The position numbers were made by a program, and so were the translations under genes. From Fibrobacteria bacterium (GTDB lineage: Bacteria > Fibrobacterota > Fibrobacteria > UBA11236): DNA of 64,000 bases. The stretch is from NCBI GenBank assembly GCA_021155885.1, contig JAJNBB010000004.1, positions 5,725 through 69,724 of the forward strand, in the 5' to 3' direction. Below are positions 61,001-64,000 of the stretch, one piece after another; the first letter of the stretch is position 1; each line of letters opens with the position of its first letter. The notes beneath the pieces are model-generated. The model made no database searches. It was not told the origin of the DNA and worked only from the letters and a program-made list of their open reading frames with translations.

Positions 61001-61993
61001 ATGTATATGGCCAAAATGAATCTTGGAACGGATCACGAGGTGAAAGAGCGCATCCGCGGCTACTTCGCGGATACCACCCGCGACTACCTCGCCTGGTATG
61101 GCACCCGCCGCCACCACCACATGCACTACGGTTTCGACCGCGACCTTCCCCGGGGCGGAAGCCCGACCGGGAACATGACGCGTTATCTGGCGCGCCTCGC
61201 CGGCCTGCTTCCCGCGGATCCCGGCCGGCCGGCGCCGCGCGTGCTCGACGCCGGATGCGGCATGGGGGGCTCGTCCATCCTGCTCGCGCGCGAGGCCGGG
61301 GCCTTGTGCGTCGGGATCAATCTCGTGGAATCCCACGCGCGCATCGCCCGGGACTTCGCCCTGCGCGACGCGGCCAAGTGGGGCACGCCCTTGGAAACGG
61401 CCCCGGGGGCGACCGCCGTTCCCGCCGGGCTGGACCGGTCCGCCGCGCGCTTTCTCGCCAACGATTACATGGCGCCGGCCTTCAAGCCGGAGTCCTTCGA
61501 CGTGATCTGGGCGCTGGAGAGCTTTTGCTACGCGCCGGACAAGGAGGCCTGGATCCGGGCCATGGCGCCGCTGCTCAAGCCCGGCGGCCGCCTGCTGATC
61601 GCGGACGGATTCTCCGGCCGGCCCGCGGCGAACCCGGCGGAGCAACGCTCCTTCAGGCACTTCATGAAAGGATGGGCGGTGCCCCACTTCTGCAGCTTCG
61701 AGCAAACCGTGGAGTGGGCGAGGCACGCGGGCCTCGAAACGACGCACGCCGAAAACATCACCCCCGACGTTCTTCCGCACGCCTGGAAGATCTTCCGCCT
61801 GGGGCCTTTCCTCGTGCCCTGGCGCCGGCTGCTCCATGCGCTGGGATTCATCGGGGAAGAGAACCTGCAAAACGCCTATGCCATCTACCATCAGTACCCC
61901 ACGATGAAGCGGGGTCTCTGGCGCTACGGCGCGTTCACGATGAAGCGGGGTCTCTGGCGCTACGGCGCGTTCTGCTTCCGCAAGCCGGGTTAG
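61001..61993 (+). CDS. class I SAM-dependent methyltransferase
   Basis: Motif I is VLDAGCGMGGSSILLA and the post-I region is CVGINLVESH. Motif II/III includes FDVIWALESFCYAPD and LKPGGRLLIAD. The C-terminus contains an exact 12-aa duplication. Confidence 0.8.
   Translation: MYMAKMNLGTDHEVKERIRGYFADTTRDYLAWYGTRRHHHMHYGFDRDLPRGGSPTGNMTRYLARLAGLLPADPGRPAPRVLDAGCGMGGSSILLAREAGALCVGINLVESHARIARDFALRDAAKWGTPLETAPGATAVPAGLDRSAARFLANDYMAPAFKPESFDVIWALESFCYAPDKEAWIRAMAPLLKPGGRLLIADGFSGRPAANPAEQRSFRHFMKGWAVPHFCSFEQTVEWARHAGLETTHAENITPDVLPHAWKIFRLGPFLVPWRRLLHALGFIGEENLQNAYAIYHQYPTMKRGLWRYGAFTMKRGLWRYGAFCFRKPG
61901..61972 (+). repeat. perfect 2 x 36-bp tandem duplication (in frame)
   Basis: acgatgaagcggggtctctggcgctacggcgcgttc occurs at 61901-61936 and is repeated identically at 61937-61972. 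It encodes TMKRGLWRYGAF twice. Confidence 0.95.
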
Positions 61994-62495: not shown

Positions 62496-62585
62496 GGGGT
62501 CCTCCCGGAGGGGGTGAGGTAGGAATATCTATGTATATCCCGCTGAAATCCAGCCTCGCTAGCCAGTACTCTTGGTGTTGATCTG

Positions 62586-63194
62586 TTACCGTGTTCTTAC
62601 AATGTCGAATTCCGAGAGTCGTTGACTTTTTTCATACGCATTTTCGATATACTTATCGGGGTCTGCCAAAAAGTCATCCTGTTCGATCAACGAAACATAA
62701 GATCCCTCCAAAATATTCACCGATTTGCAAGTCGGGCATGAATACTTCGGGGGATTTCCATTATACCGATTCCCAGTTATAATAGGATAAAGGAACGAAT
62801 TGCTTATGGATCGCGACTTGCAGCCATCCATATAGGTGTTTTGCCCAACAATCCAATCGTAACCACCATTATATTTCGCGATTACGCCAACGATTCCATT
62901 CGTGGAAGAGGCTCGCTCACCGCGGGAATACTGCCGCAACGAATACTCTATTTCCCAATCAATCCATTTGCTTTGGATCATGTTGGGAGAAACAACAACA
63001 ATGGTTACAGTGGTACCAAAAATCATATCGCCCAACTTGTTTCTAATGTGCTGGGTTGACAAATCAGTTAAGCTCGGGGACGAACTCGTTTCTCCCGTAT
63101 AATATACCGCATCCTCACCCAACGATTTTAGGATGGCGTCTCTAATACTCTGCGCTTCATTGTACTTGTAGGAAATGAAAGTCTTGCGTGCCAC
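62586..63194 (-). CDS. TIR-like (DUF1863 / ThsB-like) protein
   Basis: The gene lies in low-GC DNA. It begins (M)ARKTFISYKYNEAQ and contains TVTIVVVSPNMIQSKWIDWEIEYSL (Glu codon at 62952-62954) and IVGVIAKYNGGYDW. This parallels Bacillus ThsB as I recall it (MAKRVFFSFHY..., VLIG..T..R.WV.YEI). The GTG start at 63194 follows AGGAG (63200-63204) with a 5-nt spacer. An alternative ATG at 63230 would overlap the patatin gene by 16 nt. Confidence 0.7.
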   Translation of the reverse strand: MARKTFISYKYNEAQSIRDAILKSLGEDAVYYTGETSSSPSLTDLSTQHIRNKLGDMIFGTTVTIVVVSPNMIQSKWIDWEIEYSLRQYSRGERASSTNGIVGVIAKYNGGYDWIVGQNTYMDGCKSRSISNSFLYPIITGNRYNGNPPKYSCPTCKSVNILEGSYVSLIEQDDFLADPDKYIENAYEKSQRLSEFDIVRTR

Positions 63195-63214
63195 ATTTAC
63201 TCCTAGGCTGAGGG

Positions 63215-64000
63215 TTAAAATATTTCCCATTGCATTGCAGTAATTCCGTTAAGAAAACGAGACCTAACTTGGCTAAGCGTCTCTGCCTCAAGCGCCTCCC
63301 TACTGCCAAGCTCTATCAGTTCATCGATCTCATTTGGACTGTCCAGCTTATACAAGCCGTTGCTGGTCATTGTATTTACCCGAAGAAACCGAGGTTCCCC
63401 GACAAGACGCTTAGTCAACTTTAAAGAGGATTCTAATTGAGCATTCATAAGAAGCGAAAGAATTCTTTGTTTTCGTAGCCAACTAAATGCTCCTGCCCGA
63501 ATCTGCTTACGAACCGTAAAAGGCTCTTCTGTGGTGCCTAGACTAAGCACCTCAATTCGTTCAAGTGGTACGCGCAAAAATGTGGTCGCTTCAATTACGG
63601 CGGCCATGGCAGGAGAGTTAGCCCATACCCCTCCATCAAAATAATGGCTATCGGAAACCATAGTTGCGATTTTAGCTGCGGCGAAGAATGTAGGGGCTGC
63701 TGCAGTTGCAAGAGCTGCATGTGCGGCTTCAATGTCAGCATCTGATGTCAAATCTGGATGGTGAGGAGTACGGAACACGTGGGAAGACCCAGCAATGGCA
63801 TGGTATGCAGGTATTATAAGCCTGCATTTGGAGTCCTTCAAATATTTTTTAACGCCGTCAGAGTAATAGGCCGCTTCCAATTCCTTTAAAAGGGTTGCTT
63901 GCGCAAACTTCGGCGTAAAAATGTGTCTCGCGTTGTGCTTTAAGCGGCCCCCTAGCCGCGTCAATGGGAAAATGACTGGGCCCCTTTGGCGGTAAAAGTC
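63215..64000 (-). CDS. patatin-like phospholipase, 5'-partial (continues beyond the window)
   Basis: The frame is open to position 64000 (DFYRQRGPVIFPLTRLGG...). The patatin catalytic-Asp block SHYFDGGVWANSPAM is present (DGG codons at 63629-63637). The Gly-rich loop and GxSxG serine must lie upstream, outside the window. Confidence 0.8.
   Translation of the reverse strand, partial: DFYRQRGPVIFPLTRLGGRLKHNARHIFTPKFAQATLLKELEAAYYSDGVKKYLKDSKCRLIIPAYHAIAGSSHVFRTPHHPDLTSDADIEAAHAALATAAAPTFFAAAKIATMVSDSHYFDGGVWANSPAMAAVIEATTFLRVPLERIEVLSLGTTEEPFTVRKQIRAGAFSWLRKQRILSLLMNAQLESSLKLTKRLVGEPRFLRVNTMTSNGLYKLDSPNEIDELIELGSREALEAETLSQVRSRFLNGITAMQWEIF

What the first reader, a model, noticed from the sequence alone, without database searches (positions are those of the whole stretch)
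62586..64000. Patatin-like phospholipase + ThsB-like TIR gene pair: candidate Thoeris-like defence system with a lipase effector
Seen: two co-directional minus-strand genes lie in low-GC DNA. The patatin-like ORF is open to the window edge and stops at 63215. Its catalytic-Asp DGG block is at 63629-63637. Twenty nt downstream, a 202-aa ORF starts at GTG 63194 behind a strong AGGAG. That ORF begins (M)ARKTFISYKYNE and carries SKWIDWEIEYSL (Glu codon 62952-62954) and IVGVIAKYNGGYDW. This is the block order of TIR-like/DUF1863 proteins such as ThsB. Known: in Thoeris, a ThsB TIR protein makes an NAD-derived second messenger on infection, and the messenger activates ThsA (SIR2 or TM effector with a SLOG/Macro sensor). 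In CBASS, patatin lipases (CapV) are nucleotide-activated membrane-degrading effectors. Inference: this is a TIR sensor/signal generator coupled to a patatin effector. The ~130 aa after the patatin DGG block (TTEEPFTVRKQIRAGAFSWLRKQRIL...NGLYKLDSPNEIDELIELG...) would be the putative signal-binding part. I do not recognise this pairing as a described Thoeris type. Caveats: only the C-terminal ~260 aa of the patatin gene is visible, upstream partners are unknown, and the homology calls are from memory.
Basis: partly seen in the sequence, partly recalled or inferred. Interest (0 to 1): 0.85.

Follow-up and report, generated by a model that had tools for sequence, protein, structure and literature searches.

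The report
TIR plus SLOG-patatin Thoeris-like defence pair
The window ends in a real, horizontally acquired two-gene anti-phage module, a ThsB-type TIR enzyme next to a lipase whose relatives carry a ThsA-like SLOG sensor, but this pairing was already predicted (and not yet verified) as a Thoeris type in a 2025 preprint.

Summary
The 202-aa ORF is a ThsB-type TIR protein by PADLOC (9.5e-81), Pfam, and a model matching BdThsB1 (9vyl, TM 0.82). The truncated ORF is a CapV-like patatin lipase.

The window's fragment lacks about 300 N-terminal residues. Its closest relatives (65-70% identity) are 549-580-aa proteins with an N-terminal SLOG domain whose model best matches the ThsA SLOG bound to 3'cADPR. 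So the likely sensor is that off-window SLOG. The C-terminal 130 aa are simply part of the CapV fold.

In a scan of one genome per species, 24 of 26 SLOG-bearing genes had a same-strand ThsB adjacent. SLOG-less relatives instead sit beside a CD-NTase (CBASS). The two nearest relatives carry the same 202-aa ThsB type downstream, one with the same 20-nt spacer.

The pairing is not undescribed. Yirmiya et al. (bioRxiv, Dec 2025) list "SLOG Patatin" among putative Thoeris effectors. Two representatives, with a different TIR family, gave no defence in E. coli.

Verdict: a new member of a predicted but unverified Thoeris type, here paired with a different TIR family. Interest is moderate.

The parts
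63215..64000 (-). 3' part (261 codons plus stop) of a SLOG-patatin effector gene. Only the CapV-like lipase portion downstream of the GTSTGG serine motif is visible.
   Evidence: Translation. Pfam Patatin and PADLOC CBASS phospholipase models. 70.5% and 69.1% identity to the full-length SLOG-patatin genes of L007 and L026, and nested in that clade.
63629..63637 (-). DGG block with the catalytic Asp (fragment residue D122) of the patatin Ser-Asp dyad.
   Evidence: Aligned to D192 of AbCapV. Invariant in all relatives.
63740..63784 (-). SHVFRTPHHPDLTSD motif, which aligns with the CapV loop that binds 3'3'-cGAMP (AbCapV F147, K149, D159).
   Evidence: alignment, PMC12480259 section 9, and conservation in both the SLOG clade and the CBASS clade.
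63195..63214 (-). 20-nt intergenic spacer with AGGAG (63200-63204), 5 nt upstream of the GTG start. No terminator-like site, consistent with co-transcription.
   Evidence: The spacer is also 20 nt in L026.
62586..63194 (-). thsB: a 202-aa ThsB-type TIR protein. An alternative ATG at 63230 would give 214 aa.
   Evidence: PADLOC ThsB 9.5e-81 and Pfam ThsB_TIR. PDB 9vyl 4.5e-18 by sequence. AF2 model with pLDDT 83, Foldseek 9vyl TM 0.82.
62952..62966 (-). W77-I-D-W-E81 (WxxxE) catalytic motif of the TIR domain. The Glu81 codon is 62952-62954.
   Evidence: W77, D79, W80 and E81 are invariant in 28 relatives.
62496..62585 (.). Edge of the low-GC acquired segment. Downstream is a high-GC host gene (PF06983 family).
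   Evidence: Composition profile and gene table of L001.

Best explanation
The window ends in the 3' portion of a horizontally acquired Thoeris-family operon. The upstream gene encodes an effector whose full form, inferred from close relatives, has three parts: an N-terminal ThsA-like SLOG sensor, a short conserved linker (RLPLVRG), and a CapV-like patatin phospholipase. The downstream gene encodes a ThsB-type TIR enzyme.

Proposed mechanism, with the basis for each step:
1. Phage infection activates ThsB. This is inferred from the family.
2. ThsB converts NAD+ into an ADP-ribose-derived messenger. 3'cADPR is the leading candidate. That is inferred because this TIR cluster is otherwise paired with type V and type IX Thoeris effectors, and because the SLOG resembles the 3'cADPR-binding ThsA SLOG.
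3. The messenger binds the SLOG domain. This rests on fold and motif conservation.
4. Binding drives oligomerisation or filament formation, which opens the lipase active site. This is an analogy with ThsA and CapV.
5. Membrane phospholipids are hydrolysed and the infected cell dies before phage release. This is inferred.
For: Domain identity:
- ThsB.
- Patatin/CapV.
- SLOG in relatives: Pfam LD_cluster2 (6e-11), LD_cluster3 and STALD.
- AF2 model of the SLOG domain: pLDDT 83. Its 12 best PDB matches are all ThsA SLOG domains; the top one is 7uxs, BcThsA SLOG with 3'cADPR, E 1e-7.
- The LSG(A/S) loop, the Arg of LRxW and the G-V-P-x-E motif are conserved. They correspond to G289/S290, R371 and G399/E403 of the BcThsA pocket.

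The window fragment belongs to the SLOG clade:
- 65-70% identity to SLOG-patatin genes against 30-39% to CBASS CapV.
- Its nearest neighbours are L007 and L026.

Synteny:
- 24 of 26 SLOG-bearing loci, from many phyla, have a same-strand ThsB within 801 nt or less.
- L007, L026 and the P0020 loci have the window-type 202-aa ThsB directly downstream.
- No SLOG-less match has a ThsB within 4 kb (0 of 8). Three of them have a DncV-like CD-NTase directly downstream.

Context:
- Low GC next to host genes.
- Relatives sit beside integrases, transposons, restriction-modification and Abi genes.

Literature:
- The same configuration is listed as a putative Thoeris type.
- Tested type V and type IX TIRs make 3'cADPR.
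- The window ThsB is 59% identical to a TIR of cluster 2742576382, which is labelled types V and IX.
Against: - The SLOG domain and the catalytic serine are not visible in this window or in the second assembly. The effector's integrity here is unknown.
- Five relatives carry nonsense, frameshift or truncating lesions.
- Two SLOG-patatin systems gave no defence in E. coli, so no member of this type is verified. Those two used a different TIR family, 26% identical to the window's.
- No tested TIR belongs to the window's cluster, so the messenger is inferred by association only.
- 3'cADPR did not activate type IX effectors, which also carry a SLOG.
- The K388 equivalent of the ThsA pocket is not conserved.
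- The CapV nucleotide-pocket residues are retained, so a second or alternative ligand site cannot be excluded.
Confidence: 0.65

Rival explanations
1. The lipase is an ordinary CBASS CapV whose CD-NTase lies just beyond the window. The ThsB would be an unrelated orphan, or part of a neighbouring Thoeris system.
For: The fragment matches CBASS phospholipase models strongly (PADLOC 1.7e-56; NCBIfam CBASS_lipase 154.8 bits). NCBI names some relatives 'CBASS cGAMP-activated phospholipase'. Upstream DNA is missing.
Against: - The fragment is 65-70% identical to SLOG-bearing genes and only 30-39% identical to CapV genes that sit beside a CD-NTase.
- 24 of the 26 SLOG-clade loci have an adjacent ThsB, and none showed a CD-NTase.
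- The same ThsB type, gene order and 20-nt spacer recur in L026.
- The NCBIfam score is below its cut-off of 200.
Confidence: 0.03
2. The module is real but the roles differ. In this reading the TIR protein is an NAD+-depleting effector, or a second effector, and not a signal generator. The SLOG-patatin would sense some other nucleotide.
For: Yirmiya et al. state this caveat explicitly for their unverified types. Many bacterial TIRs are NADase effectors.
Against: - The TIR is a small stand-alone ThsB with no sensor fusion. It clusters with ThsBs of types V and IX, and its fold matches ThsB structures best.
- The partner carries both a sensor (SLOG) and a killing domain (patatin), which leaves the signal-maker role vacant.
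- Several loci hold multiple ThsBs beside one effector, as in classical Thoeris.
Confidence: 0.1
3. The module signals as proposed, but the messenger is not 3'cADPR, or it is read partly or wholly by the retained CapV-type inter-protomer pocket and not only by the SLOG domain.
For: - The positions that contact cGAMP in AbCapV (F147/K149/D159/E207) are conserved as V-F-R...D and E in the SLOG clade.
- C-terminal motifs (TTEEPFT, RFLRVNT, SRFLNG) are specific to the SLOG clade.
- 3'cADPR failed to trigger the SLOG-bearing type IX effector.
- The K388 equivalent of the ThsA pocket is variable.
Against: - The same pocket motif is conserved in CBASS CapVs too, so it may reflect fold or filament contacts and not a ligand.
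- The SLOG domain is strongly conserved (62% mean column identity). It keeps the G...E and Arg pocket residues and matches the 3'cADPR-bound ThsA SLOG best.
Confidence: 0.15
4. In this particular genome the effector gene is a decayed remnant, and only ThsB is intact.
For: - Disrupted effector genes beside intact ThsB genes are common among relatives: L004/L030, L039/L040, L041 and L023.
- L028 is an N-terminally truncated remnant with no adjacent ThsB.
- Two assemblies of this organism both break inside the gene.
Against: The visible 261 codons are uninterrupted and keep every family-invariant residue. The frame continues to the last base of the longer contig.
Confidence: 0.12

Closest known systems
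'SLOG Patatin' putative Thoeris configuration (Yirmiya et al., bioRxiv 10.64898/2025.12.03.692087, Tables S1/S2, Fig. 1C)
   Same: A TIR gene adjacent to an effector with a SLOG sensor and a patatin lipase. It was predicted from defence-island enrichment.
   Different: - Their examples use TIR cluster 2612507145, which is BcThsB-like. The window's ThsB is only 26% identical to one of these and 59% identical to a cluster 2742576382 TIR.
- In the window and its two closest genome relatives, L007 and L026 (the P0020 metagenome contigs show L007's arrangement), ThsB lies downstream of the effector. It lies upstream in 18 of the 24 paired loci.
- Their two tested systems did not defend in E. coli, and the type has no number.
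Type I Thoeris (ThsB + ThsA SIR2-SLOG; messenger 3'cADPR)
   Same: A ThsB-type TIR and a SLOG sensor of the ThsA kind; the best structural matches are 7uxs, 8bto and 6lhx. The logic is sensor-effector fusion, with one or several ThsBs per effector.
   Different: - The killing domain is a CapV-like phospholipase, not a SIR2 NADase.
- The SLOG is N-terminal, whereas in ThsA it is C-terminal.
- PADLOC ThsA models do not hit the protein.
CBASS type I with CapV (CD-NTase + cGAMP-activated patatin phospholipase)
   Same: The lipase domain is homologous along the whole CapV profile. It keeps the Ser-Asp dyad and the FxTPHxP...D / E pocket motif. Filament-dependent activation is a plausible shared mechanism.
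   Different: There is no CD-NTase partner; a ThsB sits beside the gene instead. The protein has an extra 240-aa SLOG domain and clade-specific C-terminal motifs.
Type IX Thoeris (ThsB + ThsJ TIR-SLOG) and type V (ThsB + ThsF DUF2270)
   Same: They share the window's TIR cluster in Table S1. The tested TIRs of these types make 3'cADPR. Type IX also reads its signal through a SLOG.
   Different: The effector domains differ (TIR or a membrane protein). The tested TIRs belong to other clusters.

Membership tests
Thoeris (broad sense: TIR signal generator plus signal-activated effector) | ThsB-type TIR protein with the catalytic Glu | tested here: met
   PADLOC ThsB 9.5e-81 and Pfam ThsB_TIR above cut-off. 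PDB 9vyl BdThsB1, E 4.5e-18 by sequence and TM 0.82 by fold. W77 and E81 are invariant.
Thoeris (broad sense) | Adjacent co-directional effector gene, with the pair conserved across genomes | tested here: met
   20-nt spacer in the window. 24 of 26 SLOG-patatin loci have a same-strand ThsB. The same ThsB type lies downstream in L007, L026 and the P0020 loci.
Thoeris (broad sense) | Effector carries a ligand-sensing domain for the TIR product | tested here: inconclusive
   The N-terminus lies outside the window and outside the second assembly. A ThsA-like SLOG is present in all full-length relatives at up to 70.5% identity.
Thoeris (broad sense) | Infection-dependent production of an ADPR-derived messenger, and phage protection | not testable with these tools
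   Needs experiments. Two SLOG-patatin systems with another TIR family were negative in E. coli.
Type I Thoeris | ThsA with a SIR2 NADase domain | tested here: not met
   There was no SIR2 hit. The effector domain is patatin, and no PADLOC ThsA model matched.
CBASS (CapV effector) | CD-NTase encoded in the operon | tested here: inconclusive
   The window's own upstream DNA is missing. No CD-NTase was seen in the SLOG-clade loci examined. The SLOG-less CapV loci L035-L037 have a DncV-like NTase directly downstream.
CBASS (CapV effector) | NCBIfam CBASS_lipase equivalog score at or above the cut-off | tested here: not met
   154.8 bits against a cut-off of 200. The query is a fragment, so this counts only weakly against membership.
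'SLOG Patatin' putative Thoeris type (Yirmiya et al. 2025) | TIR gene next to a protein with SLOG plus patatin domains | tested here: met
   The patatin part and the adjacent TIR are seen directly. The SLOG part is inferred from clade membership. The configuration is listed in Tables S1/S2.

The most novel reading that the evidence does not exclude
The SLOG-patatin effector could be a two-site receptor. It has kept the CapV inter-protomer nucleotide pocket (the FRTPHH...D / E motif) and has also gained a ThsA-like SLOG. Activation might then need a TIR product at both sites, or integrate two different signals. Alternatively, this TIR cluster may make a messenger other than 3'cADPR. Either would explain why 3'cADPR alone fails to trigger the SLOG-bearing type IX effector, and why the tested SLOG-patatin systems looked inactive.
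Probability: 0.12. Interest if true: 0.65.

Novelty: new member of a known kind. Interest (0 to 1): 0.4.

Why it matters
The finding shows effector swapping between the two main nucleotide-signalling defence families. A CBASS-type lipase has been put under the control of a Thoeris-type SLOG sensor and a TIR signal generator. No member of this type has been verified.

The survey here offers better test candidates:
- Intact operons in L026 and the P0020 loci.
- Cultured strains: Bradyrhizobium sp. Ec3.3, Bradyrhizobium sp. Tv2a-2 and Roseicella frigidaeris.
- A second TIR family paired with the same effector.

There is also a practical annotation point. PADLOC v2 models label these genes as an orphan ThsB and a CBASS phospholipase effector, and NCBI names some relatives 'CBASS cGAMP-activated phospholipase'. 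Such systems are therefore easily misfiled.

Tried and rejected
1. **Extending the contig.** The only other assembly found (JGI Ga0456369_0000951) ends 24 nt past the window. The 202-aa GTG form of ThsB is not on record; only the 214-aa call is.

2. **Recurrent ~264-aa database entries starting at 'MLDFY', and ~300-aa N-terminal pieces.** I considered a programmed split or recoding site near the catalytic serine and rejected it. The lesions are heterogeneous: a TAA nonsense codon in L039/L040, a frameshift at the Ser codon in L004/L030, and a frameshift in the linker in L041. Gene callers simply restart at a conserved Met.

3. **Sequence-only search of the SLOG profile against the PDB.** It gave only a non-significant hit to SeThsA (E 0.1). 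The fold comparison was needed.

4. **The third homology search, using the SLOG domain.** It returned only fragments and no full-length protein. The SLOG domain was therefore modelled alone, not the whole effector.

5. **Literature searches.** Searches for Thoeris + patatin, SLOG + patatin and the PDB code 9VYL found no other description.

6. **Terminator and promoter scan.** Nothing above background.

7. **Mapping the C-terminal cGAMP contacts of AbCapV** (L272, F275, R279, E328, T331, K332). The HMMER alignments stop near residue 244-254, so these could not be placed.
Full report
**1. The observation**

On the minus strand, an ORF open to the window edge ends with a stop codon at 63217-63215 and contains FDGG, with DGG at 63637-63629. 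A 20-nt spacer follows, carrying AGGAG 5 nt before a GTG at 63194. The next ORF is 202 aa and ends at 62586. It contains the quoted peptides, including W77-I-D-W-E81 with the Glu codon at 62954-62952. GC drops from 0.60-0.73 in the neighbouring housekeeping genes (nuo, cytochrome bd) to 0.43-0.50 across the two genes. Every coordinate in the finding is correct.

**2. What the two proteins are**

- **The 202-aa protein.** It matches Pfam ThsB_TIR above the curated cut-off. It matches PADLOC ThsB model PDLC00428 over its full length at 9.5e-81. By sequence it matches PDB 9vyl (BdThsB1 with NAD) at 4.5e-18 over residues 1-198. An AlphaFold2 model (pLDDT 83, pTM 0.83) has 9vyl as its best structural match (TM 0.82, E 3e-13). 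EcThsB, a ThsB-Tad3 complex and BcThsB follow. W77 and E81 are invariant in 28 relatives.
- **The truncated protein.** It matches Pfam Patatin, the PADLOC CBASS phospholipase effector models (1.7e-56, profile positions 71-312 of 331) and NCBIfam CBASS_lipase (154.8 bits, below the cut-off of 200). Solved CapV structures are the best PDB relatives. The region after DGG is covered by these CapV profiles, so it is not an extra domain.

**3. The missing N-terminus**

A second assembly of the same organism (NCBI names it a Fibrobacteria MAG) ends only 24 nt beyond the window. It reads ...GLSGKE-MLDFY..., so the ORF continues upstream.

The closest database relatives (55-69% identity) carry Pfam LD_cluster2, a SLOG family, in front of Patatin. 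Reading the DNA of their loci shows that the true ORFs are 549-580 aa. They consist of a ~240-aa SLOG domain, a conserved RLPLVRG linker, and the lipase with DGGG, GTSTGG and DGG. Pfam finds LD_cluster2, LD_cluster3 and STALD in the full-length L026 protein.

A model of the SLOG domain (pLDDT 83) has ThsA SLOG domains as its 12 best PDB matches. The top match is BcThsA SLOG bound to 3'cADPR (7uxs, E 1e-7). TRPM and LOG proteins rank behind.

The family conserves an LSG(A/S) loop, the Arg of LRxW and a G-V-P-x-E motif. In the alignment to SeThsA, these correspond to G289/S290, R371 and G399/E403 of the BcThsA 3'cADPR pocket. The K388 equivalent is not conserved.

**4. Is the pair a module?**

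I scanned one genome per species with a profile of the family and obtained 34 loci.

- **SLOG-bearing genes (26 loci).** They come from Acidobacteria, Planctomycetota, Verrucomicrobiota, Desulfobacterota, Nitrospirota, Alpha- and Betaproteobacteria, an Erysipelotrichaceae MAG and others. In 24 of them a same-strand ThsB lies within 801 nt: upstream in 18 and downstream in 6. The two exceptions are a short contig (L012) and a truncated gene (L023).
- **SLOG-less matches (8 loci).** None has a ThsB within 4 kb. L035, L036 and L037 have a DncV-like CD-NTase immediately downstream, which is CBASS. L028 is a truncated remnant of the SLOG clade.

In a tree of the shared 261 residues, the window's fragment nests in the SLOG clade. 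It is closest to L007 (70.5%) and L026 (69.1%), against 30-39% for CBASS CapV. L007 and L026 are also the two loci with the window-type 202-aa ThsB directly downstream of the effector. L026 has the same 20-nt spacer.

The same arrangement (SLOG-patatin 562 aa, ThsB 202, TIR_2 170, ThsB 124) recurs in many metagenome contigs carrying P0020. Other close relatives of the window's ThsB sit beside different small unannotated genes, in DISARM-like or transposon contexts. That fits the modular exchange of Thoeris effectors.

**5. Comparison with the literature**

Yirmiya et al. (bioRxiv 10.64898/2025.12.03.692087, Dec 2025) surveyed TIR genes in defence islands and annotated 29 putative Thoeris types.

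- Their Tables S1 and S2 list 'Patatin' / 'SLOG Patatin' effectors beside TIRs of cluster 2612507145.
- Two representatives, from Pseudomonas veronii R4 and a Proteobacteria scaffold, were tested in E. coli MG1655 and gave no defence. The type therefore remains unnumbered and unverified.
- The window's ThsB is 26% identical to the P. veronii TIR. It is 59% identical to a TIR of cluster 2742576382, whose members are labelled type V and type IX.
- The tested type V and IX TIRs, which belong to other clusters, make 3'cADPR. However, 3'cADPR did not trigger the type IX effector.

No other paper in the searchable library pairs Thoeris with patatin. From memory, and not checked here, Burroughs et al. 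(2015) described SLOG fusions to diverse effector domains.

**6. Mechanism**

The best-supported reading is as follows. ThsB senses infection and makes an ADPR-derived messenger, with 3'cADPR as the leading candidate. The N-terminal SLOG binds it. Oligomerisation then activates the CapV-like lipase, and membrane damage aborts the infection.

What is shown:
- the domain identities;
- conservation of the catalytic and pocket motifs;
- conserved synteny;
- mutual exclusivity with a CD-NTase.

What is inferred:
- the presence of the SLOG in this particular gene;
- the identity of the messenger;
- the activation step, by analogy with ThsA helical assemblies (PDB 8bto) and cGAMP-induced CapV filaments;
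- the defence phenotype.

A caveat: the AbCapV residues that hydrogen-bond cGAMP (F147, K149, D159, E207) align with V-F-R...D and E in the SLOG clade, and they are equally conserved in CBASS CapVs. The C-terminal motifs TTEEPFT, RFLRVNT and SRFLNG are specific to the SLOG clade. A role for the lipase body in ligand reading, or in filament contacts, is therefore not excluded.

**7. Verdict**

The feature is real and the pair is a conserved module. It belongs to a Thoeris configuration that has been predicted but not verified. The novelty here is limited to three things:
- pairing with a second TIR family;
- a reversed gene order;
- the evidence that the SLOG is ThsA-like.

Interest is moderate (0.4).

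Noticed in passing
L039 1770-1778 and L040 483-491; L004 7950-8040 (= L030); L041 4090-4120; L023 5974-7425; L028 5842-7026: SLOG-patatin genes are often inactivated, in most cases beside an intact ThsB. The lesions are an in-frame TAA replacing Glu before MLEFY (seen in two SRA runs), a frameshift at the catalytic Ser codon (a long-read MAG, so this could be an error), a frameshift in the SLOG-lipase linker, a truncation with no detected ThsB (L023), and an N-terminally truncated remnant without a ThsB (L028). This explains the many ~264-aa database entries that start at a conserved Met. It also suggests the effector is costly to the cell.
   Followed up: partly
window 63977-64000 and L001 1-24: The JGI contig that carries these genes ends inside the lipase gene, 24 nt past the end of the window and about 10 codons downstream of where GTSTGG should be. 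Where the NCBI contig that the window comes from ends is not known. The cause (strain variation, a repeat or low coverage) is unknown.
   Followed up: no
L042 5390-8346 (also L043, L044): A ThsB is followed by a 301-aa protein with SLOG (LD_cluster2) but no patatin domain, then a 92-aa ORF and a DUF4272 protein. The same locus is seen in several assemblies. It may be another SLOG-based Thoeris effector arrangement.
   Followed up: no
L024 5224-5931 and L021 5236-5931: In Bradyrhizobium and an Alphaproteobacteria MAG, a conserved 231-235-aa gene with no Pfam hit and a C-terminal CxCGS...C.H motif sits between ThsB and SLOG-patatin. It may be an accessory component.
   Followed up: partly
L007 8599-9588; L008 5383-5913; L026 5122-5697 (minus strand); L002 6624-7624: Many SLOG-patatin loci carry two or three different TIR/ThsB genes, as in multi-ThsB Thoeris systems. 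The window shows only one downstream, and further TIR genes could lie upstream of the missing 5' end.
   Followed up: partly
L003 9268-10857: A 529-aa ORF overlaps the end of the SLOG-patatin gene in a Tn3/IS110 context. No Pfam family is on record for it, and its function was not examined.
   Followed up: no
L045 900-2373 and L049 4562-6288: Close relatives (62-65% identity) of the window's ThsB are flanked by small unannotated ORFs (139-152 aa and 199 aa) in place of SLOG-patatin, next to DISARM-like genes or inside a Tn3-type element. These may be other effector partners of this TIR cluster.
   Followed up: no
window about 61900-61993 (plus strand): The methyltransferase-like ORF 61001-61993 ends with a tandem duplication at protein level (MKRGLWRYGAFT MKRGLWRYGAF). 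This implies a direct DNA repeat of about 36 nt at the 3' end of the gene.
   Followed up: no
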